A DNA stretch of 64,000 nucleotides from Deltaproteobacteria bacterium (lineage in GTDB: Bacteria > Desulfobacterota > GWC2-55-46 > DRQE01). Positions 17,449 through 59,083 of the stretch are shown piece after piece; positions within the stretch are counted from its first letter, which is position 1; each line of letters opens with the position of its first letter. The stretch spans positions 12,051 to 76,050 of the forward strand of contig JAJRSM010000034.1 of NCBI GenBank assembly GCA_024278765.1, read 5' to 3'. The position numbers were made by a program, and so were the translations under genes. Under the pieces are notes generated by a model. That model had not been told where the DNA came from and searched no databases. It saw only the letters and a program-made list of their open reading frames with translations.

Positions 17449-17478
17449 TCAAAGCTCTTATGTCAAGCAATGACCAAA

Positions 17479-17505
17479 GGGAGTCGCATAGCGACTCCCT
17501 TTTTT
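17479..17505 (+). terminator. Rho-independent terminator (GGGAGTCGC-ata-GCGACTCCC followed by T6)
   Basis: Perfect 9-bp stem and a U-tract, directly after the zinc-ribbon ORF. Confidence 0.8.
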
Positions 17506-18228
17506 GTGGTTTGCTGCGCACGGTAAAGAACAACCTAACATGTCACCCTGAACTTGATTCAGGGTCTGTATTTGTTTTTGCGCAAGGTGATAAAGCAAGA
17601 ACAGATGCTGAACTAAATTCAGCATGACAAATAGGGTGTTTAGTTATAATCGTTGCTGATAACTATCTGGCGATTTTGCGACAAAGGTGCTTTGCTCTGC
17701 GCAGGAGTTTGCCCCACCGCAGGTGGTGCTGCGCACGGTAAAGAACAACCTAAGATGCCACCCTGAACTTGATTCAGGGTCTGTATTTGTTTTTGCGTAA
17801 GGTGATAAAGCAAGAACAGATGCTGAACTAAATTCAGCATGACAAATATGGTATTTAGTTGTAATCGTTGCTGATAACTATCTGCTGATTTTGCGACGAA
17901 GGTGCTTTGCTCTGCGCAGAAGTTTGCCCTACCGCAGGTCGGCTTCCCCTAGGTGGGCGTTTGTAAGGTCGGCAAAGTGTTTTAAGATGGTTCGGAAAGG
18001 CGCGTAGCAGGGTGTGACCCAATGAATTTGTCCCACCGCAGGAGTTTGCCCCACCGCAGGTGGTGCTGCGCACGGCAAATTAATCAATATGATTAATTAC
18101 TACGCGTTGCACGGAACTTTCTGATGCGCTTCGCTCACCGCAGGTGCGCAAAGTAAATGCATTAACCAGGTTTTGTCTTTGCGGCGAAGCCGCTTTGCTC
18201 TCCGCAGGAGTGCCGCCCCGCATGGGGC
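17506..18228. repeat. Complex non-coding repeat locus. A ~215-bp unit is tandemly duplicated (17513-17727, 17728-17942), with a third partial copy from about 18065. Each unit carries hairpins CCCTGAA-cttga-TTCAGGG and ATGCTGAA-ctaaa-TTCAGCAT and multiple CACCGCAGGTG motifs.
   Basis: Read directly. Units are more than 95% identical. Minus-strand ORFs 17640..17840 and 17855..18073 are near-identical repeat artefacts. The locus lies between convergent genes. Confidence 0.75.
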
Positions 18229-25911: not shown

Positions 25912-26191
25912 TTGTTGCACTCCTTTTGTTTTTTTGTTGTTATGCTGAACTTGTTTCAGCATCTGTTTTGTTTTTTGTCGAATAAAGACAGATCCTGAAA
26001 TAGATCTCGTAGCCGTTTTAGATGGTCGGGATGACAAGTCTGGTATGTCTTTTGTATATTGTCGTAGCTGTCTGAGACGGTTTATCGCCAGTCTGGGACA
26101 GGTTGTCGTTATTATCTATTTTCATGTTACGTTAGTACTTTGAAGTTACTACAAAAATGGTGCTGAGGCAAGTAATCTTGAAGGGTTTTTG

Positions 26192-37925: not shown

Positions 37926-39059
37926 ATGAAAGAACGTAAAAAAGCAATGCTTGTATTATCGGACGGAACGGTCTTTGAGGGTTATTCTTTAGGCGCGGTC
38001 GGCGAAGCACCGGGCGAGGTCGTCTTTAATACCTCGCTTATGGGTTATCAGGAAATCTTGACCGATCCGTCGTATAAGGGCCAGATAGTCACGATGACCT
38101 ATACCGAGCAGGGAAACTACGGGGTGAACCTTGAAGACATCGAGTCTTGCAAGCCATGGGTAAGCGGCTTTATCGTAAAGCAGGCCTGCGCCTACCCGAG
38201 CAGTTGGCGTAACAATAAAAAAGGCGGCATGACGCTCGACGCATATCTTAAAGAGAGCAATGTCGTTGGTATTGAAGGTATAGATACCCGTGCGCTTACT
38301 CGTCATATCCGCAAAGAGGGAGCAATGCCAGGCATTATATCTTCGGTTGACCTTGATGCAGAGAGCCTCTATAAGAAGGCCATGGCGATACCAACGCTCG
38401 CCGGGCAAGACCTCGCAAAAGAAGTCACCTGTAAAGAACCATACCAGTGGACAGAAGGGCTCTGGGATATGGAGAATGGGTATTGCGAAGACTCGGAAAA
38501 ACCAAAATATAAAGTCGTTGCCTTTGACTTCGGAATAAAATTTAATATTCTGCGCTCGCTCGTCAGTACTGGCTGCGAGGTGACGGTCGTCCCTGCCAGC
38601 ACTACGGCAGCAGAGGTTATGGAGATGAACCCGGACGGGATTTTCCTCTCTAACGGTCCGGGCGATCCCGAGCCCGTAGACTATGCACAGAAGACGATTA
38701 AGGAACTCATAGGTAAAAAGCCAATCTTTGGAATATGTCTTGGTCATCAGCTGCTGAGCCTAGCCCTTGGCGGCAAGTCATTTAAACTCAAGTTCGGCCA
38801 TAGGGGCGGTAACCAGCCCGTGATGGATCTGACGACTAGGAAGGTCGAGATAACCTCGCAGAACCACGGCTTTGCAATAGACGCAGACTCGATGGAGGGG
38901 CTCGCCGAGCTTACGCACATCAACTTGAATGACAAGACCGTTGAAGGGATTCGTGGTGAGGCCAGAAAATTATTTACGGTACAGTACCACCCCGAGGCCT
39001 CTCCCGGCCCACATGACTCGCATTACCTCTTTAAGAGGTTTACCGATATGATGGGGTGA
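37926..39059 (+). CDS. carA: Carbamoyl-phosphate synthase small (glutaminase) subunit
   Basis: 377 aa; CPSase_sm_chain N-domain plus class-I GATase ('GICLGHQLL' catalytic Cys, 'HPE'). Confidence 0.9.
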
Positions 39060-39100
39060 GGGGTTGATAAGTTTTACCTTAACTAGATTTGGAGGTTACT

Positions 39101-40189
39101 ATGTCTAAAAATTTGATTGATATTGAAGAGGCAACTTATCAAGAGGACGACTGCGATGAAGTGCCACCTACAGATATAGTAGCTTATAATGAACTACGTT
39201 CTTGTGCAGACCTTTTTAGGATGCAAACGAAAGGTATGTTAGATATAAAACCAGAGTTTCAGAGAGAGGTTGTATGGAAGAAACCAGCACAAACTCGTTT
39301 TATTGATTCACTTATGAAAGGATTGCCAATTCCTAGCATGTGTTTTAGTTTTGACCATAAGACACAAAAGTGGCAAGTGATAGACGGCTTGCAAAGAATG
39401 TATACTATTATAGCGTTTTTATCAGGATCAATAGGAACTTTATCTAAGCTGAACGATATAGATCAGAGAATTTCTGGCCAGCCTTTCTATAAATTTGAAG
39501 GTGTTGATTCAGAGTTGTATTCCTATCTTACTCGTGTTGAAAATTTAACTTTGCCAATTACTGTTTTGAGATGTGATTATAGCAAGAGAAGTCATATGGA
39601 ATATCTTTTTACTATATTTCATAGGTTAAATGCTGGAGGAATGAAGCTTAACAATCAGGAAATTAGGAACTGCATATTTAGCGGTAGTTTTAATCGTTTG
39701 CTAAATGAGTTAAACGATACTAGTAGTTGGTTGAAAATAAATAGGATTAAAAAAAGTGTGGGGCATCGTTTCACTAAACAAGAGTTGATTTTAAGGTTTT
39801 TTGCTTTTTACGATTCTTATAATAACTATGATGGAAAACTTGCACGTTTTTTGAATTATTATATGGAGGATAACAGGAATCCTAGTGATGAATTTTTAGC
39901 GAATAAGAAAGAGATTTTTCAGCAAACAGTTGACGTGCTGAATGTGAATATCTTTCAAGGAAAAGTGCCTCCTAAGCTAGGTATAACAGTGTTAGAAGCA
40001 CTACTTCTTGGGGTTGCTTTTAATCTTCGAACTATTAGAAAAAAGTCTGATTCAGAGATTAATGCAATGTACTTTAAAATATTGCATCATGAAGAATTTT
40101 CAGAGAATAAACTCATGGAAGGAATCTCACAGAAGTCAAGAGTACAAGGGAGAATCAAAGCAGCAAAACAAATATTTTCTGGTAAGTAG
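39101..40189 (+). CDS. DUF262-domain protein (GmrS/ParB-like NTPase-nuclease superfamily N-terminal domain)
   Basis: 'KPEFQREVVWKKPAQTRFIDSLMKGLPIPSMCF' and 'VIDGLQRMYTI' match the DUF262 signature (YQR..W ... IDGQQRLTT). GGAGG RBS 6 nt before ATG 39101. AT-rich relative to flanking carA and carB. Confidence 0.75.
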   Translation: MSKNLIDIEEATYQEDDCDEVPPTDIVAYNELRSCADLFRMQTKGMLDIKPEFQREVVWKKPAQTRFIDSLMKGLPIPSMCFSFDHKTQKWQVIDGLQRMYTIIAFLSGSIGTLSKLNDIDQRISGQPFYKFEGVDSELYSYLTRVENLTLPITVLRCDYSKRSHMEYLFTIFHRLNAGGMKLNNQEIRNCIFSGSFNRLLNELNDTSSWLKINRIKKSVGHRFTKQELILRFFAFYDSYNNYDGKLARFLNYYMEDNRNPSDEFLANKKEIFQQTVDVLNVNIFQGKVPPKLGITVLEALLLGVAFNLRTIRKKSDSEINAMYFKILHHEEFSENKLMEGISQKSRVQGRIKAAKQIFSGK

Positions 40190-40191
40190 AT

Positions 40192-40695
40192 ATGATAGTC
40201 AAAGGCTATATTCGTGATAATTTAGACAGGTTGGAGAACCTATATTATGTAGATTCAGCTGGTCTTGCTGGATTTCTTTACTCTAAATTGGCAATTCTTG
40301 AGCTCGGTGGTTGGGCTGAAGAGTCAATGGAAGATATTGTTTTGAGGCATGCAAAACGTCATCTAAGAAAGGAGCTTAAATTTAATAGTTTTAAGAAATA
40401 CCATGTTGATAAAAACCATGGTTTTCATTACGAGAAAAACTTTTTCGTAATGTTAATAAAACTTATTGGCATTGTCAATGTTGAGCGCATTGAAAGAAAG
40501 ATTGATTTGTTAAGATTTGACCAGATGAAGTCAGCCTTAAGTACTCTTAAGTACAGTCGTAATAGTTTAGCACATACGCACACTAAGGGAATTACTGTAA
40601 CTATAGATACACCATCTATAACGAAGAAATCTTTCGTGCGTATATTAGAAGGTTTTAAAGAGTTTGATAATATTTTAAGAACTTTAAGTTTCTAA
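40192..40695 (+). CDS. Small HEPN-like protein (Rx4H motif; resembles the MAE_28990/MAE_18760 HEPN-like nuclease family often found beside DUF262 genes)
   Basis: 167 aa, predicted helical; 'SRNSLAHTH' near the C-terminus is an Rx4-6H HEPN-type motif. The start codon is 2 bp after the DUF262 stop. Family assignment is by recollection, not by search. Confidence 0.45.
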   Translation: MIVKGYIRDNLDRLENLYYVDSAGLAGFLYSKLAILELGGWAEESMEDIVLRHAKRHLRKELKFNSFKKYHVDKNHGFHYEKNFFVMLIKLIGIVNVERIERKIDLLRFDQMKSALSTLKYSRNSLAHTHTKGITVTIDTPSITKKSFVRILEGFKEFDNILRTLSF

Positions 40696-40731: not shown

Positions 40732-43700
40732 TTGCCAAAACGTACTGACATAAAAAAGATATTATTAATCGGCTCTGGTCCAATCGTAATCGGGCAGGCC
40801 TGCGAGTTTGATTACTCCGGTACGCAGGCCTGCAAGTCGCTTAAAGAAGAAGGCTACGAGGTTGTCTTGATAAACTCGAATCCGGCGACGATTATGACCG
40901 ACCCGAACCTTGCTGATAAGACCTATATTGAGCCGCTCTCAGCCGATATGATCGCAAAGGTAATCGAGCGAGAACGTCCGGATGCTCTGCTGCCGACGAT
41001 GGGCGGTCAGACCGCTCTGAACGTAGCGATTGAGCTTGACGAGATGGGCGTCCTTGAGAAGTTCAATGTCGAGCTGATCGGTGCTGGCATCGAGGCGATA
41101 AAAAAAGGCGAAGATAGAGAGCTATTTAAAAAAGCTATGGAGCGTATCGGACAAAAAGTCCCAAGCGGCGGCTTTGCAACTACATTCGATGCTGCATGCA
41201 AGGTCGTCGAGCAGTTTGATTACCCTGTGATCGTAAGGCCGTCTTTTACCCTTGGCGGCACAGGCGGTGGTATCGCCTATAACCGTGAAGAGTTTGAGAA
41301 GCTCGCAAAGCACGGAATAGACGCAAGTCCGACTGACGAGATACTTATAGAAGAATCGGTGATTGGTTGGAAGGAGTTTGAGCTGGAGGTAATGCGCGAT
41401 ACCAAGGACAATGTCGTAATTATCTGCTCGATTGAGAATCTAGATCCGATGGGCGTGCATACAGGTGATTCGATAACCGTTGCTCCGGCGCAGACCCTCT
41501 CGGATAAAGAATATCAGCTTATGCGCAACGCGTCTCTGGATATTATTCGAGAGATCGGCGTTGATACCGGCGGCTCTAATATACAGTTCTCGGTCAATCC
41601 AAAGACAGGTGGTATATATGTTATCGAGATGAATCCGAGGGTCTCAAGGAGTTCTGCTCTGGCCAGTAAGGCAACCGGCTTTCCGATAGCCAAGATCGCT
41701 GCTAAGCTCGCCGTTGGTTATACCCTCGATGAGATACCAAACGATATAACAAAGATGACGCCAGCGTCATTTGAGCCGACGATTGATTATGTCGTAACAA
41801 AGATTCCTCGTTTTACCTTTGAGAAATTCCCGCATGCCGACTCTGTCTTGACCACCCAGATGAAGAGCGTTGGTGAGGTTATGAGTATGGGGAGGACCTT
41901 TAAAGAATCATTTTTAAAGGCTCTGCGTTCCTTAGAGACAGGCGTTTCAGGGCTTGACCCGATTGTGCGCAAAGATCGCTCGGAGGTCTTTTTTGAGGTT
42001 ACAGAGGAAGAGGCCGAGGAGATCTCTACGAACCTGAAGGTCCCAAGGGCCGAGCGTATGTACTACGTTGCCGATGCCATGCGTTCCGGTATGACTGTGG
42101 AGAAGGTTCATGCCCTGACAAATATTGATATGTGGTTCTTAAATAATATACGAGAGATCGTCGAGCTTGAGGGTGAGTTATACGAGGAAAGTAAAAAAGG
42201 CGAGTTGACTAACGCCTCGATACGTGCGGCAAAGGAGTCTGGTTTTTCTTACACAACGCTTGCGCGTATTACAGGCGAGGCAGAGTCGGCTATAACAGCG
42301 CGTGCGCACAAGGCCGGAATCAGGCCAGCGTATAAGTGTGTCGATACCTGCGCTGCTGAGTTCGAGGCACATACGCCGTATCTCTATTCTACATATGAGC
42401 GGCCTTTCTATAATATAAAAGACAAGACCGAACCAGCAGTCGAGTGCGAGGCAGCACCGACCAGGAATAAAAAAGTAATGATTCTTGGAAGCGGTCCGAA
42501 CCGAATCGGTCAGGGTGTTGAATTTGATTATTGTTGCGTCCATGCAAGCTTCGCCCTTAAAGAAGAGGGCATTGAATCGATAATGCTCAACTGTAACCCA
42601 GAGACGGTATCGACTGATTACGATACCTCTGATAGGCTTTATTTTGAGCCGCTTACCTTTGAAGATGTCATGGCCGTCATAGAACGAGAAAAGCCCGACG
42701 GCGTTATCGTACAGCTTGGCGGGCAGACCCCGCTTAAGTTATGCGTAGCTCTCGAGCGTGCAGGGGTGAAGATCCTTGGCACTACGCCTGACTCAATAGA
42801 TGAGGCCGAGGATAGAGAACGTTTTGATGCGTTATTAGAGAAGCTGAAGTTAAGACGACCCGAGAGCGGGCTTGCGCGTAGCACAGAAGAGGCCGTAGCT
42901 GCTGCAAATAGTATTGGATATCCAGTTATGGTAAGGCCGTCTTACGTGCTTGGCGGTCGGGCAATGGAGATCGTCTTTAACGAAGATAGCCTCAATGAAT
43001 ATATGGCGCGTGCCGTGCAGGCCTCGCCCGAGCATCCTGTGCTCGTCGATAGATTCTTAGTAGGGGCAACTGAGGTTGATGTCGATTGCGTAAGCGACGG
43101 CGATCTTGTAGTGATCGGAGCTATCATGGAGCATATAGAAGAGGCCGGTGTCCATTCCGGCGACTCGGCCTGCTCGTTACCACCGTACTCACTTAGCAAA
43201 GAAAGTCTAGCAGAGATTACGAGGCAGACCAAGGCACTGGCAAAAGAGCTAAAGGTTGTTGGTCTTATGAATGTTCAGTTTGCGGTAAAGGACGAGGTGA
43301 TCTATATCATAGAGGTCAATCCGAGAGCCTCCCGTACCGTACCGTTTGTCAGCAAAGCAATAGGGCGTCCTCTGGCCAAGATCGCAACGAAGGTTATGAT
43401 AGGTAAGACATTAACTGAGCTTGGCTTTACCAGGCAGATCCATCCGCCGTACGTCTCTGTCAAAGAAGCTGTCTTTCCGTTTATAAAGTTCCCGGGTGTT
43501 GATACTATTTTAAGCCCAGAGATGAAGAGCACCGGTGAGGTGATGGGTGTTGGTGACGGCTTTGGCAAGGCCTTTGCAAAGGCGCAGATAGCCGCCGGTA
43601 ATACCCTGCCGCTTGTGGGTAATGTATTTGTAAGTGTCAGAGATGCTGATAAAGAAGGGGTCTTGCATGTTGCCAGAGAATTAAAAGAGATGGGTTTTAA

Positions 43701-44040
43701 TATCCTGGCGACGCGCGGTACGGTACGGTTTTTGGCCGAGCATGGCGTAGAGACCGAGTATGTTCATAAGGTAAATGCAGGGCGGCCTCATATCGTAGAT
43801 GAGATAAAAAGTAAAAAGGTTGCGATGGTTATTAATACATCCTTTGGCGCAAAGAGTGTTGCTGATTCTTACTCTATTAGGCGAAGCTCGATAGAGAATG
43901 GCGTGCCGTACTTTACTACCATCGCCGGTGCGCATGCAGCGACTCGCGGCATAAAGGCAAAGAAAAAAGAAGCCCTCGATGTTATGAGTCTTCAGGAGTA
44001 TCACGAGCAGAACGAGGCTGCGATAAAGGCCTCGCTCTGA
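40732..44040 (+). CDS. carB: Carbamoyl-phosphate synthase large subunit
   Basis: 1102 aa; duplicated ATP-grasp halves, oligomerisation domain, MGS-like C-terminus. TTG start after an AAGGAG RBS. Confidence 0.95.
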
Positions 44041-44421
44041 AAAATTGAATTTTCTCTCTTAGAGTTTTAGGTTGTAAATAATTTAAAAGATAGATATTGA
44101 CTGCTTGCAGTGGTGTTAAAGGCTGTAGGTAGATATAGCACTGCGAGTAGTAATAAGTTATATAGATTGATCTATTCGTACGCAATACTCTGAAACAAGT
44201 TCAGGGTGACAGGTTTTGTAGTTAGTGTGTACAGGCGTAAATAGGCATTGGTTTGTTTTATGATAATTAAATTTTCAATATGTCATGCTGAATTCAGTTC
44301 AGCATCTGTCTTTAAGATTTCGATAACAGTAGATCCCTAAACAAGTTAAATCAGGGTAAGAGTCGGAATAGAATGTTAAACTTCTAAATTCACAGAGGTC
44401 TTCTTTTGAGGAGTACCTTTT

Positions 44422-48189: not shown

Positions 48190-48202
48190 AGTGGGTTCGT
48201 AC

Positions 48203-48496
48203 TCATAAATGTCCTGCGGCGTTGCCAGAACTGCAAACTCTAATCCTCAAATACCTAAAAGGTGCTCGCCGCACGGCAAATGCATTAATATGGTTTTGTC
48301 TCATAAATGTCCTGCGGCGTTGCCAGAACTGCAAACTCTAATCCTCAAATACCTAAAAGGTGCTCGCCGCACGGCAAATGCATTAATATGGTTCTGTCTC
48401 ATAAATGTCCTGCGGCGTTGTCAGAACTGCAAACTCTAATCCTCAAATACCTAAAAGGTGCTCGCCGCACGGTAAATGCATTAATATGGTTCTGTA
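48203..48496. repeat. Tandem array of three ~98-bp units (TCATAAATGTCCTGCGGCGTTGCCAGAACTGCAAACTCTAATCCTCAAATACCTAAAAGGTGCTCGCCGCACGGCAAATGCATTAATATGGTTYTGTC)
   Basis: Copies start at 48203, 48301 and 48399 and are almost identical. ORF-track entries 48209..48439 and 48307..48534 are repeat artefacts. The 'GCACGGCAAAT..ATTAAT.ATATGGTT' core recurs at 18060-18160. Confidence 0.8.
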
Positions 48497-48797
48497 CTTC
48501 GCATGGCTGCGAGCTATCTAGGATGTCATCCTGAACTTGATTCAGGATCTGTATTGGTAGTAGGCATAGAAAGATAGCTGCGTTGGCTCTGCCTCCTCGC
48601 AAAGACTTGCTTGGTGGTTTATCTTGTAAAAGGTCTATCTATGCGTCTGCATAGGCAGCAGTACCAGCCTTGCCTTTGAATATTCCACTTCAAATCCTAT
48701 TGACAAATAGCCTCATGGATAGTAATCTAATGTGCTCTGAGTCGAGTGATCTTTTCAGAGTATAGTTACGAAATACTAGAAGAAAAAGGAGTTTTAG

Positions 48798-51413: not shown

Positions 51414-51531
51414 GGGAGAGCCACCCTTGAGAGGCTCTCTCTTTTTGAATTTTCTTTTCATCTTGTCTTCCGAAGCGGTTCTGCGGATAATATTGTTTTA
51501 TAATAAATGATCAGATGCTGAAAGTGGGGGC

Positions 51532-54938: not shown

Positions 54939-56642
54939 ATGGCGGAAAGAATAGGTGAGCTCCTACTTAAAGAGAAGCTTATAAACCACGAACAGCTTCA
55001 ACAGGCAGTTGATGAACAGAAAAAAGGTGGTGGCCGGCTTGGCTTTAATCTTACAAAGCTTGGCCATATAAGCGAAAAAGACCTTACGATTTTTCTCAGC
55101 AAACAGTACGGAATACCTACCGTTGAAATTGTTGAGGGAGAGTTGGATAGTGAGGTCGTCTGTTTAATCCCCGAAGATGTTGCACGCAAATACCAAGTTT
55201 TACCGGTCAGTCGTAACGGTGCCACCCTGGTCGTCGCTATGGCGGATCCTTCCAATATTTTTGCAATCGATGATATAAAATTCCTTACAGGTTATAACGT
55301 TGAGACCGTAGTTGCCTCTGAGGTCGCTATAAAGAGCGCTATTGAGAGCAGTTATCAGAGTAGCGAGATGGACCTAGCGATGGAGGACGTCCTCACCGAG
55401 TTTGACGAGGATGATATGGAGGTCATCCAGGAAGAAGACGAGGTCGATCTAGGCGACCTTAAAAAGGCCGTTGAAGACGCGCCTGTCGTTAAACTCGTTA
55501 ACTTTATCCTTACCGATGCTATTGTTAAGCAGGCCAGTGATATCCATGTCGAGCCGTATGAGAAGTCCTTCAGGGTGCGCTACAGGGTAGACGGTGTGCT
55601 TCATGAGGTTATGAGACCTCCGATGAAGCTTAAAAACGCCATAGTCTCAAGGATCAAGATCATGAGCCAGCTTGATATCGCCGAGCGTAGATTGCCCCAG
55701 GATGGCAGGATAAAGCTCAAGCTCGGGCGTAACCGCGAGATGGACTTCAGGGTCTCGGTCCTTCCAACGCTCTTTGGTGAGAAGGTCGTTATGAGGCTTC
55801 TAGATAAGAGTAACCTTCAGCTTGATATGACCAAGCTCGGCTTTGAGCGGGCAGCGTTGGATAACTTCCTTGATGCGATACATAAACCTTGGGGTATAGT
55901 GCTGGTAACCGGGCCGACAGGAAGTGGTAAGACAACTACCCTTTACTCAGCACTTTCAGACCTTAACAAAGAATCAGAGAATATATCTACAGCAGAGGAT
56001 CCGGTCGAGTTTAACCTGATGGGTATTAATCAGGTTCAGATGCATGAGGATATTGGTCTTAACTTCGCAGCGGCTCTTAGAAGTTTCCTTCGTCAAGATC
56101 CGGATATAATCATGGTTGGTGAGATAAGGGACTATGAGACGGCTGAGATCGCCATCAAGGCCGCACTCACCGGCCATCTGGTCTTATCTACCTTGCATAC
56201 AAATGACGCCCCTAGTACCGTCAACAGGCTCTTGAATATGGGAGTAGAACCTTTTCTTGTCTCTTCGGCCTGTAACCTGATACTAGCGCAGAGGCTGGCG
56301 CGCAAGATCTGTGAGAAATGCAAGGAAGAGACGACAATCTCGGAGCAGGCCTTATTGGATCTGGATATTACCGCAGAGCAGGCAAAGAAGATGAAGTTTT
56401 TTAAGGGCAAGGGATGTACTGATTGCAATGGTACGGGCTATAAGGGCAGGATAGCGCTTTATGAGGTCATGCCATTTACAGAGACCCTTAAAGAGCTGGT
56501 CTTAAACGGCGCATCTTCATCTGAGCTTAAGAAGCAGGCGATAGTCGAGGGCATGCAGTCGTTGCGTATGAGTGGACTTAGCAAGGTAGAAGAAGGGGTA
56601 ACAACGCTTGAAGAAATATTAAAGGCTACTATGGCCGATTGA
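54939..56642 (+). CDS. pilB: Type IV pilus assembly ATPase PilB (GspE family)
   Basis: 567 aa; T2SSE_N domain ('LINHEQLQQAVDEQKK'), Walker A 'GPTGSGKTTT', C-terminal tetracysteine 'CEKC...CTDCNGTG'. Confidence 0.9.
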   Translation: MAERIGELLLKEKLINHEQLQQAVDEQKKGGGRLGFNLTKLGHISEKDLTIFLSKQYGIPTVEIVEGELDSEVVCLIPEDVARKYQVLPVSRNGATLVVAMADPSNIFAIDDIKFLTGYNVETVVASEVAIKSAIESSYQSSEMDLAMEDVLTEFDEDDMEVIQEEDEVDLGDLKKAVEDAPVVKLVNFILTDAIVKQASDIHVEPYEKSFRVRYRVDGVLHEVMRPPMKLKNAIVSRIKIMSQLDIAERRLPQDGRIKLKLGRNREMDFRVSVLPTLFGEKVVMRLLDKSNLQLDMTKLGFERAALDNFLDAIHKPWGIVLVTGPTGSGKTTTLYSALSDLNKESENISTAEDPVEFNLMGINQVQMHEDIGLNFAAALRSFLRQDPDIIMVGEIRDYETAEIAIKAALTGHLVLSTLHTNDAPSTVNRLLNMGVEPFLVSSACNLILAQRLARKICEKCKEETTISEQALLDLDITAEQAKKMKFFKGKGCTDCNGTGYKGRIALYEVMPFTETLKELVLNGASSSELKKQAIVEGMQSLRMSGLSKVEEGVTTLEEILKATMAD

Positions 56643-56724
56643 CTTAAGGTTTGGGTCTTTTTCCTCGATAATAAATAGTATAGGCTACAGTATATACCGG
56701 TATATGAACGGTAAGGAGTGAGTC

Positions 56725-57840
56725 ATGTCAGAAGGCGTAAAAATGCCGGAACTCCAAGTGTTACTTAAGAAACTTGTAGAACTTAATGGTTCGGATCTGC
56801 ATATATCCGCTGCTTCTCCGCCAAGGATTCGAGTGCACGGTAAGCTTACCCCCCTTGATCTGCCTACTCTAACCGGTGTGCAGACCAAGCACATGTGTTA
56901 CTCCATCTTAACAGACGCACAGAAGCATAAGTTTGAGGATAACAACGAGCTTGATCTATCATTCGGAATGAAGGGGCTTGCGCGGTTCAGGGCGAATATC
57001 TTTGTACAGAGAGGGACGATTGCCGGAGTTTTTCGTTCTATTCCTATAGAGATTTTGACTGTGAAGGATCTTGGTTTACCGCCGGTTGTAGATGAGCTTA
57101 CCAATAGACCGCGAGGGCTTGTTCTGGTCACCGGCCCTACAGGAAGCGGTAAGTCCACGACCATCGCTGCGATGATAGATAAGATCAATACCGAGCGTGA
57201 CGAACATATCGTTACTATTGAAGACCCGATAGAGTACTTGCACCGGTCAAAGAGAGCACTGGTTAATCAGCGTGAGGTCGGTGCCGATACCTTTAGCTTT
57301 AGAAAGGCGATAAAGTCGGTCCTGCGCCAGGACCCGGATGTTGTGCTTGTCGGTGAACTTCGTGATCTCGAGACTATCGAGACCGCTCTTACGATTGCCG
57401 AGACAGGTCATCTCTGTTTTGCGACCCTGCATACAAACTCATGCGTCCAGTCAATCAACAGGATTATAGATGTCTTTCCCGCTGCTCAGCAGCCGCAGGC
57501 TCGTGCTCAGCTTTCTTTTGTGCTGGAAGGTGTTATGAGCCAGCTTTTGCTTACTAAGGCCGATGGCACGGGACGTGTACTGGCTCTGGAGATTATGACT
57601 CCTAACTCGGCTATAAGAAATCTTATCCGCGAGGATAAGATTCACCAAATCTATTCGCAGATGCAGGTAGGACAAGCCAAGTTCGGTATGCAGACGATGA
57701 ATCAGAGCCTGATAACCTTGCAGGCGCGTCGCCTGATTTCTGTGGACGATGCGCTCAACAGGAGCCCAGACCAGGATGAGTTGCGTCAGATGATGATAAA
57801 CGCAGGTGTGATGCGTAGTGCATCGGGGTCAAAGAAGTAA
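56725..57840 (+). CDS. pilT: Type IV pilus retraction ATPase PilT
   Basis: 371 aa; 'GLVLVTGPTGSGKSTT' and the 'AIRNLIRE' PilT motif. AAGGAG RBS. Confidence 0.9.
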   Translation: MSEGVKMPELQVLLKKLVELNGSDLHISAASPPRIRVHGKLTPLDLPTLTGVQTKHMCYSILTDAQKHKFEDNNELDLSFGMKGLARFRANIFVQRGTIAGVFRSIPIEILTVKDLGLPPVVDELTNRPRGLVLVTGPTGSGKSTTIAAMIDKINTERDEHIVTIEDPIEYLHRSKRALVNQREVGADTFSFRKAIKSVLRQDPDVVLVGELRDLETIETALTIAETGHLCFATLHTNSCVQSINRIIDVFPAAQQPQARAQLSFVLEGVMSQLLLTKADGTGRVLALEIMTPNSAIRNLIREDKIHQIYSQMQVGQAKFGMQTMNQSLITLQARRLISVDDALNRSPDQDELRQMMINAGVMRSASGSKK

Positions 57841-57859
57841 GTATAAGAGGTTATTATTT

Positions 57860-59083
57860 ATGCCTAAATTTGCATATTCAGGGAAAACACTCTCAGGTCA
57901 GGCGGCAAAGGGTGTTATAGAGGCTGCCAATCTGGCGCAGGCCAACTCAATGCTCAGGCGTAAGCAGGTTGTGCCGAACTCGTTATACCCTAAGAAGAGT
58001 GGGTTTGCCGCTTTAAATGAAATACAGATCCCTGGAATGGCGCAGAAGATCAAGGTAAAGGAGATAGTCGTCTTTACCCGTCAGTTCGCGACGATGATAG
58101 ATGCGGGTCTGCCTCTTGTTCAGTGTTTGGATATTCTGGCAAATCAACAGGATAATAAAGAGTTTCAGAAGGTGCTCATTGACGTTAAGTCGAGCGTAGA
58201 GGAAGGCTCTACCTTTGCCGATGCCTTAAAGAAACACCCGAAGGTCTTTGATGATCTCTTTGTCAATCTTGTTGCCGCAGGCGAGATCGGTGGTATCCTC
58301 GATACAATCCTAAACAGGTTGTCGGGCTTTATGGAGAAGGCCGAGAAGTTAAAGGGTAAGATAAAGGGTGCTCTAACCTACCCGAGTGCAGTTATAGTTA
58401 TAGCACTGATAGTCGTAACGGGACTTCTCTTATGGGTTGTGCCTGTCTTTGATGATATGTTCAAGGGCTTTGGCAGTGCTCTTCCCGCACCGACTCAGGT
58501 CGTTGTGGCTATGAGCAACGCGCTTCAAAATTACTGGTATATAATCTTTGGCACACTTGCGGCAGTTATAGTTGCTCTTAAGCAGAGTTACAAAACGCGT
58601 AGGGGCAAGCGGATTATGGACGGGGTATTTCTAAAGATGCCTGTCTTTGGTGATCTACTAAGAAAGACAGCCGTTGCGCGTTTTACGCGGACCCTTGGAA
58701 CGATGCTGGCAAGCGGAGTGCCCATACTCGAGGCACTTGAGATAGTGGCCAAAACTGCTGGTAATGTAGTGATTGAGGAAGCTATTATGGATGCAAGGTC
58801 AAGTCTTAGCGAAGGAAAGACGCTGGCCGAACCACTTGCCGCTACCAAAGTATTCCCCAGCATGGTAACTCAGATGATAACAGTTGGTGAGAGTACGGGT
58901 TCAATGGATACGATGCTTAATAAGATCGCTGATTTTTATGAGGATGAAGTCGATGCCTCGGTCGATACATTAACCTCTCTTATAGAGCCGCTTTTGATGG
59001 CCTTCTTGGGTGTTGTCGTCGGTGGTCTTGTTATTGCTCTCTATCTTCCAATCTTCTCTCTTGCCGGTGCTGCGGGCGGCTAA
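57860..59083 (+). CDS. pilC: Type IV pilus inner-membrane platform protein PilC (GspF family)
   Basis: Start 'MPKFAYSGK' (the ORF track starts at 57818); duplicated T2SSF domains. Confidence 0.85.
   Translation: MPKFAYSGKTLSGQAAKGVIEAANLAQANSMLRRKQVVPNSLYPKKSGFAALNEIQIPGMAQKIKVKEIVVFTRQFATMIDAGLPLVQCLDILANQQDNKEFQKVLIDVKSSVEEGSTFADALKKHPKVFDDLFVNLVAAGEIGGILDTILNRLSGFMEKAEKLKGKIKGALTYPSAVIVIALIVVTGLLLWVVPVFDDMFKGFGSALPAPTQVVVAMSNALQNYWYIIFGTLAAVIVALKQSYKTRRGKRIMDGVFLKMPVFGDLLRKTAVARFTRTLGTMLASGVPILEALEIVAKTAGNVVIEEAIMDARSSLSEGKTLAEPLAATKVFPSMVTQMITVGESTGSMDTMLNKIADFYEDEVDASVDTLTSLIEPLLMAFLGVVVGGLVIALYLPIFSLAGAAGG

What the first reader, a model, noticed from the sequence alone, without database searches (positions are those of the whole stretch)
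25941..25965. Dispersed family of small hairpin elements TGTCA-YSCTGAA-N5-TTCAGSR-TCTGT (at least 8 copies in 64 kb)
The same 25-35-bp structured motif (7-8-bp stem, 5-nt loop, conserved TGTCA 5' flank and TCTGT 3' flank) occurs in both orientations at the following sites:
- 17541-17570 and 17605-17629
- their tandem copies at about 17756-17785 and 17820-17845
- 25941-25965 (5' of the UPF0173 gene)
- 44188-44213 and 44281-44310 (carB-recG spacer)
- 48524-48555
This density and conservation indicate a genome-specific REP-like element family, possibly serving as transcript-stabilising or terminator hairpins, a nucleoid-protein or tyrosine-transposase (REPtron-like) target, or sRNA modules.
Basis: seen in the sequence. 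Interest (0 to 1): 0.5.

Follow-up and report, generated by a model that had tools for sequence, protein, structure and literature searches.

The report
Hairpin repeats recognised by Ssn nucleases
The repeated 29-base hairpin is real, but it is not specific to this genome: it is a widespread sequence class of the hairpin repeats that accompany small GIY-YIG "Ssn" single-stranded-DNA nucleases, a system first described in 2025.

Summary
The window holds eight full copies and two half copies of (T)GTCA-YSCTGAA-N5-TTCAGSR-TC(TGT). All are intergenic, against 0.03 copies expected by chance.

The element is not genome-specific. The 29-mer occurs in at least 15 phylum-level lineages; the scan stopped at 117 loci.

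Its architecture matches the NTS/SRM hairpin repeats of Chenal et al. 2025 (PMC11893778): GTC, a palindrome running from A to T, then C. Those repeats are the ssDNA recognition sites of the ~95-aa GIY-YIG nuclease Ssn.

- In 80 metagenomic loci chosen only for such a GIY-YIG gene, 74 carry this hairpin class within 250 bp of the gene, and 46 carry it on both sides. Density is 4.6 per kb near the gene and 0.13 per kb elsewhere.
- Three close relatives of the window organism carry a hairpin-flanked GIY-YIG gene between carA and carB. The window has a PD-T4-2 defence pair at that site instead.
- Stem positions covary strongly, as do loop positions 1 and 4.
- No Y1/RAYT transposase recurs near the hairpins, there is no Rfam match, and few copies have terminator-like tails.
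- The published SRM search string misses this class.

Verdict: a new sequence class of a known kind. Cleavage by the nuclease is inferred, not shown.

The parts
17540..17569 (+). Full hairpin copy ATGTCA-CCCTGAA-CTTGA-TTCAGGG-TCTGT. It is the forward member of a convergent doublet.
   Evidence: ssDNA fold -7.4 kcal/mol, z -3.07.
17601..17630 (-). Full hairpin copy TTGTCA-TGCTGAA-TTTAG-TTCAGCA-TCTGT on the minus strand. It is the reverse member of the doublet, 31 nt from the 17540 copy, with the TCTGT ends facing each other.
   Evidence: -6.9 kcal/mol, z -4.79. The same 29-mer lies next to the GIY-YIG genes of relatives L198, L200 and L204.
17755..17784 (+). Duplicate of the 17540 copy, with GTCA mutated to GCCA.
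17816..17845 (-). Duplicate of the 17601 copy, intact.
17512..17939 (.). 215-bp tandem duplication (2.0 copies, 94% match). Each unit carries one forward/reverse hairpin doublet.
25937..25966 (+). Hairpin copy with an intact TGCTGAA/TTCAGCA stem and the 5' flank mutated to GTTA. This is the copy named in the finding. It lies between the MBL-fold (UPF0173-type) gene and the 2-thiouracil desulfurase gene.
   Evidence: -7.0 kcal/mol, z -4.69.
25988..25999 (-). Half copy (TTCAGGATCTGT, the 3' arm plus flank), 21 nt from the 25937 copy in the convergent arrangement. It is a decayed doublet partner.
   Evidence: It does not fold as the family hairpin.
44183..44212 (-). Degenerate copy in the carB-recG spacer, with a stem mismatch and the 3' TC changed to TA.
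   Evidence: -2.6 kcal/mol, z -0.86. The orthologous copy is present in L198 and absent in L200.
44280..44309 (+). Full copy ATGTCA-TGCTGAA-TTCAG-TTCAGCA-TCTGT in the carB-recG spacer.
   Evidence: The orthologous copy is present in L198 and absent in L200.
48523..48552 (+). Full copy ATGTCA-TCCTGAA-CTTGA-TTCAGGA-TCTGT in the gdh-DUF1015 spacer.
   Evidence: The orthologous copy is present in L198 and absent in L200. Identical 29-mers occur in L018 (Balneolaceae) and L117 (Dehalococcoidia).
51511..51522 (-). Half copy (TTCAGCATCTGA) between dciA and the next ORF.

Best explanation
The elements are a sequence class of Ssn-related hairpin repeats, called NTS in Neisseria and SRM more generally.

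Inferred mechanism: when one strand is exposed as ssDNA (during replication, repair or DNA uptake), GTC-[A-YNCYGAA-loop-TTCRGNR-T]-C folds into a 9-bp hairpin closed by a small C:G- or T:A-closed loop. A ~95-aa single-domain GIY-YIG nuclease of the Ssn family then binds that hairpin on one strand only and nicks the ssDNA a few nucleotides 5' of GTC.

The nuclease gene is normally bracketed by a same-strand hairpin upstream and an opposite-strand hairpin downstream. The convergent gene-less doublets, such as 17540/17601 in the window, have the same relative orientation and look like cassette derivatives that lack the gene.

Shown here:
- the hairpin architecture;
- covariation in the stem and loop;
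- the intergenic, doublet distribution;
- the cross-phylum spread;
- the tight association with the GIY-YIG gene;
- presence/absence differences between close relatives.

Inferred from the published Neisseria/Wolbachia enzymes:
- ssDNA-specific, strand-specific binding and cleavage;
- the biological effect, which would be restriction or modulation of incoming or exposed ssDNA, possibly combined with selfish spread.

The window itself carries sites only and no nuclease gene. Three of its eight copies are already mutated at positions that are critical in the Neisseria system.
For: 1. Same architecture as the published NTS. NTS is CGTC-ATTCCCGC-GMAV-GCGGGAAT-CYRG. The paper reports that the C directly after the palindrome is the most important base for binding, and that the three bases before the palindrome matter most for cleavage (PMC11893778). 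The window consensus is TGTC-ATCCTGAA-CTTGA-TTCAGGAT-CTGT.

2. Association with the nuclease gene. Three GIY-YIG genes (PF01541, 91-121 aa) lay beside hairpins in the genome loci. A metagenome scan with them gave 80 loci. Of these, 74 have a GTCA-stem7-loop-stem7-TC hairpin within 250 bp of the gene and 46 have one on both sides. Density is 4.56 per kb near the gene against 0.13 per kb elsewhere. Upstream copies are mostly on the gene strand (54 against 22) and downstream copies mostly on the opposite strand (67 against 26).

3. The window's own lineage. Relatives with 88% and 82% RecG identity (L198/L199, L200), and a third relative found through its GIY-YIG protein (L204, whose pyr-carA region is 84-91% identical to the window in DNA), are syntenic with the window. 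Each carries a 96-106-aa GIY-YIG gene between carA and carB. That gene is flanked by 29-mers identical or nearly identical to the window copies.

4. Structure. 139 copies were chosen by invariant positions only, from loci selected by protein. 99.2% of cells pair. 161 cells show changes on both sides, against 42.8 +/- 4.7 in shuffles (0 of 500 shuffles reached the observed value). The covariation score is 0.363 against 0.142, and at most 0.063 when partners are slid. Loop positions 1 and 4 covary (C..G 132, T..A 33).

5. Link to the published family. A GIY-YIG protein flanked by NTS-like hairpins (L184, GTCATTCCTGCGTACGCAGGAATC) is 50% identical (E 6e-33) to the relative's protein. L178 in the same protein set has a flank that matches the published SRM string.

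6. Location and arrangement. Only 41 of 423 copies lie in long-ORF cores, which make up 75% of the sequence. Convergent doublets dominate (86 of 140 neighbour pairs), mostly with spacers of 10-30 nt.
Against: - There is no Ssn-like ORF in the 64-kb window. The rest of the source genome could not be retrieved, so a cognate nuclease in this organism is unproven.
- The published degenerate SRM search string matches none of the window copies and only 1 of the 80 GIY-YIG loci.
- No enzyme of this subfamily has been tested on a CTGAA-type hairpin.
- Assignment of the proteins to CDD family cd10448 could not be tested here.
- The association could in principle mean that the nuclease gene is a preferred landing site for the hairpins, rather than that the hairpins are its substrate.
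- Three of the eight window copies carry changes at GTC, at the stem, or at the 3' C.
Confidence: 0.75

Rival explanations
1. REP/REPIN elements mobilised by a RAYT (IS200/IS605-like Y1 tyrosine transposase).
For: The copies are extragenic oriented hairpins with an asymmetric head. They occur frequently as inverted doublets with short spacers, which is the REPIN arrangement. They differ in presence between close relatives.
Against: All-against-all clustering of 3147 ORFs from 117 hairpin loci plus the window found no recurrent transposase. Apart from spurious translations of the repeat itself, the recurrent clusters were pilin-like proteins, ABC ATPases, histidine kinases, HTH proteins, an ABC-transporter permease-like cluster (identified by eye only), FtsA-like proteins and housekeeping enzymes. 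The single recurrent nuclease was GIY-YIG. The head is GTCA, not the GTAG of REPs. The hairpins bracket GIY-YIG genes in 74 of 80 loci.
Confidence: 0.04
2. The hairpins act mainly at the RNA level, as transcription terminators, 3'-end stabilisers or sRNA modules.
For: A simple terminator scan flags the four copies at 17.5-17.8 kb, because their tails (CTGTATTTGT, CTGTTCTTGC) are T-rich. All copies are intergenic. The 25937 and 17540 copies are followed by T-rich stretches.
Against: Only 73 of 423 copies have at least 6 T in the next 10 nt. The gene upstream of the 17.5-kb cluster has its own canonical terminator at 17476-17502. A terminator does not need an invariant GTCA, GAA/TTC core and 3' TC across many phyla. 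Copies occur in both orientations relative to neighbouring genes. No Rfam family matches. The published homologous enzyme does not bind RNA.
Confidence: 0.1
3. A palindromic double-stranded operator bound by a dimeric transcription factor or nucleoid protein.
For: The core CTGAA-N5-TTCAG is a perfect inverted repeat located in intergenic DNA.
Against: Within one genome the stems differ (CCCTGAA, TGCTGAA, TCCTGAA), yet both arms always change together. That pattern is expected for a folded single strand, not for a protein reading two identical half-sites. The flanks are asymmetric. Copy density is far above that of any regulon. Many copies sit at gene 3' ends or between convergent genes.
Confidence: 0.03

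Closest known systems
NTS / SRM hairpin repeats with the Ssn (SsnA, GIY-YIG cd10448) ssDNA nuclease (Chenal et al. 2025, Nat Commun 16:2388, PMC11893778)
   Same: Both are ~29-nt oriented hairpins with GTC before a palindrome that runs from A to T, followed by C. Both are high-copy and almost always intergenic. Both flank a ~95-aa single-domain GIY-YIG gene on both sides in inverted orientation, and both are found across many phyla.
   Different: The stem is AT-richer (YNCYGAA instead of TTCCCGC). The loop is 5 nt (CTTGT, TTTAT, CTCGT or CTTGA), with covarying positions 1 and 4, instead of GMAV. The published degenerate search string does not detect it. The hosts seen here are mostly Bacteroidota, Spirochaetota, Patescibacteria, Melainabacteria, Ignavibacteriota, Balneolaceae and a Desulfobacterota-like vent lineage, rather than the Neisseria, Wolbachia, Rickettsia and Sphingomonas hosts emphasised in the paper. 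No biochemistry exists for this class.
REP / REPIN / BIME elements with RAYT (TnpA-REP) Y1 transposases
   Same: Both are dispersed extragenic hairpins with an orienting head sequence and frequent inverted doublets. Both are proposed non-autonomous partners of a single-copy nuclease gene that they flank.
   Different: The head is GTCA rather than GTAG. The associated gene encodes a GIY-YIG nuclease, not an HUH/Y1 enzyme, and no Y1 gene was found nearby.
Subterminal hairpins of IS200/IS605 insertion sequences
   Same: Both are ssDNA hairpins recognised on one strand by a small nuclease encoded between them. The hairpin-gene-hairpin layout is shared.
   Different: The enzyme family is different. 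No defined element ends or cleavage tetranucleotides could be identified here, and the boundaries of the indels between relatives are not clean.
Neisseria dRS3 repeats (ATTCCC-N8-GGGAAT)
   Same: These are the palindromic core of NTS. They were a long-known dispersed repeat whose partner protein was unknown for about 20 years.
   Different: The sequences are unrelated apart from the shared flanks. dRS3 is confined to Neisseria.

Membership tests
Ssn-related motif (SRM/NTS-type) hairpin repeat | A 20-50-nt inverted repeat that folds into a hairpin as a single strand | tested here: met
   The intact window copies fold as ssDNA at -6.4 to -7.4 kcal/mol with z-scores of -3 to -4.8. In 139 independent copies, 99.2% of cells pair, with covariation far above shuffled and slid controls.
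Ssn-related motif (SRM/NTS-type) hairpin repeat | Conserved non-palindromic flanks that give orientation: GTC immediately 5' of the palindrome and C immediately 3' | tested here: met
   The consensus is (T)GTC-A...T-C(TGT). GTC and the 3' C were required by the search that picked the 170 copies, so their invariance there is by construction. The positions outside the required bases are also biased (T at -1 in 92 of 170, T after the TC in 139 of 170). In the window, the flanks were not required by the CTGAA-N5-TTCAG search, and 5 of the 8 copies keep both. The NTS definition and mutagenesis data are from PMC11893778.
Ssn-related motif (SRM/NTS-type) hairpin repeat | Many copies per genome, almost all outside genes | tested here: met
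   The window has 8 full copies in 64 kb, all intergenic. Only 41 of 423 copies lie in long-ORF cores, which cover 75% of the sequence. A whole-genome count for the source organism was not possible.
Ssn-related motif (SRM/NTS-type) hairpin repeat | Copies flank a gene for a small single-domain GIY-YIG (Ssn) protein, often on both sides | tested here: met
   74 of 80 GIY-YIG loci have a copy within 250 bp and 46 of 80 have one on both sides, a 35-fold local enrichment. The same holds in three relatives of the window organism. It does not hold inside the window, which has no such gene.
Ssn-related motif (SRM/NTS-type) hairpin repeat | Match to the published degenerate search string HGTCWYN(0-2)YYVSBRHN(0-5)WNVSBRGN(0-2)RNCYNB | tested here: not met
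   There are 0 matches in the window, none of the copies match, and only 1 of 80 GIY-YIG loci matches. The string was hand-built from 29 genomes with GC-rich stems. It is a search tool rather than the definition of the family, but this class lies outside it.
Ssn-related motif (SRM/NTS-type) hairpin repeat | Bound and cut by the cognate Ssn as ssDNA only, on one strand only, a few nt upstream of the hairpin | not testable with these tools
   This needs purified protein and oligonucleotides. It has been shown only for the Neisseria and Wolbachia enzymes.
Ssn nuclease family (CDD cd10448, GIY-YIG_unchar_3), for the associated protein | A single GIY-YIG domain of about 94 aa with no extra DNA-binding domain | tested here: met
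   PF01541 is the only Pfam hit and covers nearly the whole protein. Lengths are 91-121 aa. L198 is 96 aa, L200 106 aa and L204 96 aa. There are at least 4178 protein clusters at E<=1e-10, mostly 95-106 aa.
Ssn nuclease family (CDD cd10448, GIY-YIG_unchar_3), for the associated protein | Assignment to cd10448, or to a clade with N. meningitidis SsnA | not testable with these tools
Indirect support: 50% identity (E 6e-33) to a protein flanked by NTS-like hairpins. There is no solved structure of a relative.
REP/REPIN-RAYT system | A Y1 (HUH) transposase gene flanked by the repeats | tested here: not met
   No such protein appears among the recurrent ORF clusters of 117 hairpin loci plus the window. 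The flanked gene is GIY-YIG. Complete genomes were not searched.
REP/REPIN-RAYT system | A conserved GTAG head 5' of the palindrome | tested here: not met
   The head is GTCA in all copies.
Intrinsic (Rho-independent) terminator | A GC-rich stem followed directly by a U-tract, placed in the sense orientation after a gene | tested here: inconclusive
   Four window copies pass a permissive scan. However, only 17% of 423 copies have a T-rich tail, orientation relative to genes is mixed, and the sequence is conserved far beyond what a terminator needs.
Any Rfam RNA family | Score at or above a family's gathering threshold | tested here: not met
   No match in the whole window.

The most novel reading that the evidence does not exclude
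The hairpin-GIY-YIG-hairpin cassette is an autonomous selfish mobile element that moves through ssDNA, using a GIY-YIG nuclease in place of a transposase. The gene-less convergent doublets and single hairpins are its non-autonomous, MITE/REPIN-like progeny. On this reading, one nearly invariant site class has spread by horizontal transfer through at least 15 bacterial phyla and competes with defence systems for the same chromosomal hot spots.

The following observations would be footprints of its cleavage and repair cycle:
- tandem arrays of half arms (L009, L104);
- foreign inserts placed exactly in the loop after GAAC (L077, L067, L198, L200);
- a duplicated 5' fragment of the nuclease gene (L067).
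Probability: 0.3. Interest if true: 0.7.

Novelty: new member of a known kind. Interest (0 to 1): 0.45.

Why it matters
The Ssn/NTS system was described only in 2025 and was characterised in Neisseria and Wolbachia. The published search string for its hairpins does not detect the class found here.

This class appears to be one of the most widely distributed short DNA motifs in bacteria. The same 29-mer occurs in Bacteroidota, spirochaetes, CPR bacteria, non-photosynthetic cyanobacterial relatives, Ignavibacteriota, Balneolaceae, Nitrospirota, Gammaproteobacteria and a vent Desulfobacterota-like lineage.

Three practical consequences follow.
- The motif accounts for a recurrent set of spurious peptides in gene calls; an ORF cluster made of translated copies, containing peptides such as MLKQVQHD, turned up here.
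- It gives a ready-made, well-conserved candidate substrate for a new specificity of site-specific ssDNA nuclease.
- It offers natural comparative material for asking whether these cassettes are mobile elements, ssDNA restriction systems, or both: filled and empty sites in close relatives, half-arm arrays, and an Ssn cassette and a PD-T4-2 defence pair as alternative occupants of one site.

For this window alone the result is modest. The copies are sites without a nuclease gene, and some of them are decaying.

Tried and rejected
- Rfam at gathering thresholds gave 0 matches in the window. ARAGORN found no tRNA or tmRNA.
- A literal search of the paper library for the repeat sequence and its spurious peptide found 0 papers.
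- A recurrent Y1/RAYT transposase or any other mobile-element protein was sought near the hairpins by all-against-all ORF clustering plus Pfam. The Pfam-checked clusters were housekeeping families and an HTH protein; the remaining top clusters were read by eye. GIY-YIG was the only recurrent nuclease.
- The source contig could not be retrieved to look for an Ssn gene outside the window. Three window proteins and the 100%-identical RecG record P0001 are not in the position index. The listing of cluster members gave no accession.
- The supplementary tables of the Ssn paper are not held, so its genome lists could not be checked for this class.
- No solved structure of a relative was found in the PDB by sequence.
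- NCBIfam gave no family for the GIY-YIG proteins. PADLOC gave only weak partial hits for them.
- The exact insertion boundaries or target-site duplications of hairpins could not be defined from filled against empty orthologous spacers. The spacers are too divergent.
- The pattern scan of viral contigs returned only 2 hits in 2.9 million contigs, so phage carriage is not a feature.
- An early idea that the loop mimics a tRNA anticodon loop was dropped, because the loop variants do not keep U33 and R37.
Full report

Yes. The core CTGAA-N5-TTCAG occurs eight times in the 64-kb window, against 0.03 expected from dinucleotide-preserving shuffles. Two more half copies, consisting of the 3' arm plus TCTG, lie at 25988-25999(-) and 51511-51522(-).

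The flanks are asymmetric, with (T)GTCA on one side and TC(TGT) on the other, so each copy has an orientation. Three stem variants occur in the window (CCCTGAA, TGCTGAA, TCCTGAA), and each is perfectly compensated on the other arm. Folded as ssDNA, the intact copies reach -6.4 to -7.4 kcal/mol (z -3.0 to -4.8). The 44183 copy (stem mismatch, TC changed to TA) and the half copies do not beat shuffles. The copies at 17755 and 17816 belong to a 215-bp tandem duplication at 17512-17939.

All copies lie between genes:
- between an unknown 102-aa ORF and a metallophosphoesterase gene;
- between the MBL-fold (UPF0173-type) gene and a 2-thiouracil desulfurase gene;
- between carB and recG;
- between gdh and a DUF1015 gene;
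- next to dciA.

**2. It is not genome-specific.**

A scan of one genome per species (596 Gb) for TGTCANNCTGAANNNNNTTCAGNNTCTGT has 20 specified bases, so roughly one chance match is expected. The loci come from:
- Treponema and other spirochaetes;
- Bacteroidaceae, Bacteroidales, Sphingobacteriaceae, Chitinophaga, Psychroflexus and Marinifilaceae;
- Parcubacteria, Saccharibacteria, Moranbacteria, Gracilibacteria and Roizmanbacteria;
- Melainabacteria (Gastranaerophilales);
- Ignavibacteriota;
- Balneolaceae, Fodinibius and Aliifodinibius;
- Rhodothermales;
- Nitrospirota;
- Gammaproteobacteria, including Pseudoalteromonas;
- Rickettsiales, Dehalococcoidia, Chlorobiota, Endomicrobium, Zixibacteria, Armatimonadota and Thermodesulfobacteriota.

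Most are MAGs, so individual assignments could be binning errors. Three are isolates, however: Pseudoalteromonas xiamenensis, Psychroflexus longus and Aliifodinibius salipaludis.

Relaxing the pattern shows the full family: GTCA-[Y N C Y G A A]-[CTTGT, TTTAT, CTCGT, CTTGA or TTTAG]-[T T C R G N R]-TC. The stems seen are TGCTGAA, TCCTGAA, CCCTGAA, TTCTGAA, TTCCGAA, TCCCGAA, TGCCGAA and CCCCGAA. Only two matches were found in 2.9 million viral contigs.

**3. Structure.**

To avoid circularity, copies were taken only from loci that had been selected by a protein (see section 5), and they were picked by the invariant positions alone (GTCA..GAA..TTC..TC). This gave 170 unique copies.

| Stem pair | Pair types observed | Watson-Crick fraction | Expected if the two sides were independent |
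|---|---|---|---|
| 1 | T-A 135, C-G 33 | 99% | 67% |
| 2 | C-G 78, G-C 56, T-A 23 | 93% | 37% |
| 4 | T-A 127, C-G 41 | 99% | 63% |

On 139 of these copies, the pair-count tool gives 99.2% paired cells. It counts 161 cells changed on both sides, against 42.8 +/- 4.7 in shuffles (0 of 500 shuffles reached the observed value). The covariation score is 0.363, against 0.142 for shuffles and at most 0.063 when partners are slid by 1-3 columns.

Loop positions 1 and 4 also covary (C..G 132, T..A 33, other 5). The loop is therefore effectively a C:G- or T:A-closed two-base loop plus one extra base. From memory, CTTG and TTTA are classic stable DNA mini-loops (NMR work by Blommers and colleagues around 1989-91). 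That is a lead pointing to DNA rather than RNA as the folded form, not a tested result.

Compensated variation within a single genome argues for a folded single strand and against a duplex operator.

**4. Distribution and arrangement.**

Of 423 copies in all sequence held, only 41 lie in the cores of long ORFs, although those cores make up 75% of the sequence. Only 73 have a T-rich tail.

Among neighbouring copies within 120 nt, 86 pairs are convergent (TC ends facing, mostly with 10-30 nt between them), 38 are divergent and 16 are tandem. The window shows the same pattern:
- 17540/17601 and 17755/17816 are convergent doublets with 31-nt spacers.
- 25937 has a decayed convergent partner 21 nt away.
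- 44183/44280 are divergent.

**5. What goes with it.**

All-against-all clustering of 3147 ORFs from the hairpin loci gave no dominant neighbour. The largest clusters were pilin-like proteins, ABC ATPases and histidine kinases. The smaller recurrent clusters checked by Pfam were an HTH protein and housekeeping enzymes, one more looked like an ABC-transporter permease and one like FtsA, and one cluster was simply the translated repeat, with peptides such as MLKQVQHD. No Y1/RAYT transposase appeared.

The one recurrent nuclease was a small GIY-YIG protein, found in L009, L067 and L077 and tightly bracketed by hairpins in each. PF01541 is its only Pfam domain.

A literature search then found Chenal et al. 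2025 (PMC11893778). That paper reports the following.
- The ~94-aa single-domain GIY-YIG protein SsnA (CDD cd10448) of N. meningitidis is a site-specific nuclease that acts on ssDNA only.
- It binds a hairpin repeat, NTS = CGTCATTCCCGCGMAVGCGGGAATCYRG, on one strand only and cuts a few nucleotides upstream.
- The C just after the palindrome is the key base for binding, and the three bases before the palindrome are key for cleavage.
- NTS-like "Ssn-related motifs" (SRM) occur in hundreds of copies per genome and flank ssnA homologues in many phyla.
- In Neisseria the system lowers transformation by NTS-bearing DNA.

The window element has the same plan: TGTC-[A TCCTGAA CTTGA TTCAGGA T]-CTGT.

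**6. Direct test of the association.**

A metagenome scan was run with the three GIY-YIG proteins (alignment A1). It returned 80 loci chosen only by the protein.
- 74 have a hairpin of this class within 250 bp of the gene, and 46 have one on both sides.
- Density is 4.56 per kb near the gene against 0.13 per kb elsewhere in the same loci.
- The typical layout is a same-strand copy 40-70 nt upstream (54 against 22) and an opposite-strand copy 10-60 nt downstream (67 against 26).

That relative orientation matches the common gene-less convergent doublets, which therefore look like cassettes without the gene.

The published degenerate SRM string matches none of the window copies and only one of these 80 loci. 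This class therefore lies outside the published search tool.

Two members bridge the classes. L178 has a flank that matches the published string. L184 is flanked by NTS-like GTCATTCCTGCGTACGCAGGAATC, and its protein is 50% identical (E 6e-33) to the relative's protein. The protein family is large, with at least 4178 clusters at E<=1e-10, mostly 95-106 aa and named only "GIY-YIG nuclease family protein" or "putative endonuclease".

**7. The window's own lineage.**

RecG of the window is 100% identical to an NCBI record on an 80-kb contig that could not be fetched. The closest other RecG proteins are 88% and 82% identical and come from hydrothermal-vent metagenomes. The next are about 60% identical and are labelled Deltaproteobacteria or Thermodesulfobacteriota.

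The two close relatives (L198/L199 and L200/L201) are syntenic with the window: carB-recG-gdh-DUF1015-methyltransferase-dciA. A third relative (L204, GCA_054015855.1), found through its GIY-YIG protein, covers the adjacent pyrR-pyrB-pyrC-carA stretch, which is 84-91% identical to the window in DNA, and runs into the start of carB. All three lineages carry a 96-106-aa GIY-YIG gene between carA and carB (L201 does not reach that junction). The gene is surrounded by hairpins, several of them identical to the window's 29-mers.

The window has no such gene anywhere. Between carA (37926-39059) and carB (40732-44040) it holds a low-GC two-gene insert instead. That insert matches the anti-phage system PD-T4-2 over its full length (A: 5.5e-154; B: 7.7e-53).

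The carB-recG hairpin pair and the gdh-DUF1015 hairpin are present at orthologous positions in the window and in the 88% relative. They are absent from the 82% relative, whose carB-recG spacer is only 98 bp. Copies are thus gained or lost on the time scale that separates these relatives, although the junctions are too diverged to read a mechanism from them.

**8. Most likely mechanism.**

- Shown: oriented hairpins under selection for pairing; intergenic location; frequent convergent doublets; tight bracketing of Ssn-type GIY-YIG genes; presence in the same lineage as the window; gain and loss between relatives.
- Inferred from the published enzymes: the hairpin forms on exposed ssDNA, the nuclease binds it strand-specifically, and it nicks a few bases 5' of GTC. 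The consequences would be restriction or modulation of incoming or exposed ssDNA.
- Open: whether the cassette is itself mobile (the paper raises this possibility too), and whether the source genome of the window still has a nuclease.

Three of the eight window copies are mutated at GTC, at the stem or at the 3' C, which fits partial decay.

**9. Rivals.**

- REP/RAYT: the layout is similar, but the head (GTCA rather than GTAG) and the enzyme are different, and no Y1 gene was found nearby.
- Terminator or RNA element: some copies pass a permissive terminator scan, but most lack a U-tract. Sequence conservation is far beyond what a terminator needs, and the upstream gene at 17.4 kb has its own canonical terminator.
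- Duplex operator: contradicted by compensated stem variation within one genome and by the asymmetric flanks.

**10. Novelty and score.**

The kind of system is known and was published in March 2025. This is a distinct sequence class that the published search string does not detect. It is very widely spread, and it is documented here in a Desulfobacterota-like vent lineage and many other phyla. I rate it a new member of a known kind, with moderate interest.

The more novel reading is a GIY-YIG-driven ssDNA mobile element family with MITE-like progeny that competes with defence systems for hot spots. The evidence does not exclude it, and the side observations listed below hint at it.

Noticed in passing
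window 39089-40695 (with carA at 37926-39059 and carB at 40732-44040): Two ORFs (366 aa and 167 aa) in a low-GC stretch (0.43) match the anti-phage defence pair PD-T4-2_A (5.5e-154) and PD-T4-2_B (7.7e-53) over their full length. The first also has a GmrSD_N domain. They sit between carA and carB, exactly where three relatives (L198, L200, L204) carry the hairpin-flanked GIY-YIG cassette. The site is therefore a variable hot spot with alternative occupants.
   Followed up: partly
window 48194-48495; also 17513-17527, 17728-17742, 18065-18079: A second repeat family. A 98-bp unit is repeated 3.1 times in tandem (97% match) in the gdh-DUF1015 spacer, just upstream of the 48523 hairpin, with the core GGTGCTCGCCGCACGGYAAA. 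The related motif GCTGCGCACGG[TC]AAA lies next to the hairpins at 17.5-18.1 kb. Similar sequence is present in the relative L198. Its function is unknown.
   Followed up: partly
L009 7200-7360 and 7740-7990; also L104 3450-4320, L066, L044, L070: Tandem arrays of 5' half arms ((TGT)CATCCTGAAC plus 2-9 nt) run up to a complete hairpin, and 3' half arms (TTCAGGATCT plus a few nt) follow it. The 5' arms end right after GAAC, at the first loop base. This could be slippage or a repair footprint at the hairpin.
   Followed up: no
L077 820-925; L067 893-945; L198 920-976; L200 2030-2078 and 2410-2462; L204 4780-4825: Some hairpins have foreign sequence of 25-70 nt, often itself a hairpin, inserted in the loop directly after GAAC or CTGA. 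The two arms and the GTCA/TC flanks remain intact. The published enzyme tolerates loop extensions.
   Followed up: no
L067 1255-1390: The first ~50 nt of the GIY-YIG gene are duplicated upstream of the intact gene, and each copy is preceded by its own hairpin about 10 nt before the ATG. This suggests recombination or repeated insertion at the 5' end of the gene.
   Followed up: no
L006, L022, L075, L083, L106, L110 (Patescibacteria); L004, L012, L088, L108, L115 (Bacteroidaceae); L034, L038, L043, L077 (Gastranaerophilales): Within single lineages the hairpin is followed by a conserved extension specific to that lineage. Examples are TTCGCTATATTATGATTAAGA in CPR bacteria and a CCGCGG...CTCGCGG second hairpin in Bacteroidaceae. 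The 29-mer is therefore embedded in larger lineage-specific repeat units.
   Followed up: no
window 54939-59083: A PilB-type type II/IV secretion ATPase (T2SSE plus MshEN domains) is followed by two more ORFs, on which no domain search was run. If this is a type IV pilus or DNA-uptake apparatus, it would fit a role of the hairpin system in handling incoming ssDNA.
   Followed up: no
L013 4055-4438, L047, L095, L116 (ORF cluster 5): ORFs made of translated hairpins cluster together as a false protein family, with peptides such as MLKQVQHDN, CHPELVSGS and DPETS. These repeats are a source of spurious gene calls and odd C-terminal extensions, for example on the GIY-YIG protein of L067.
   Followed up: partly
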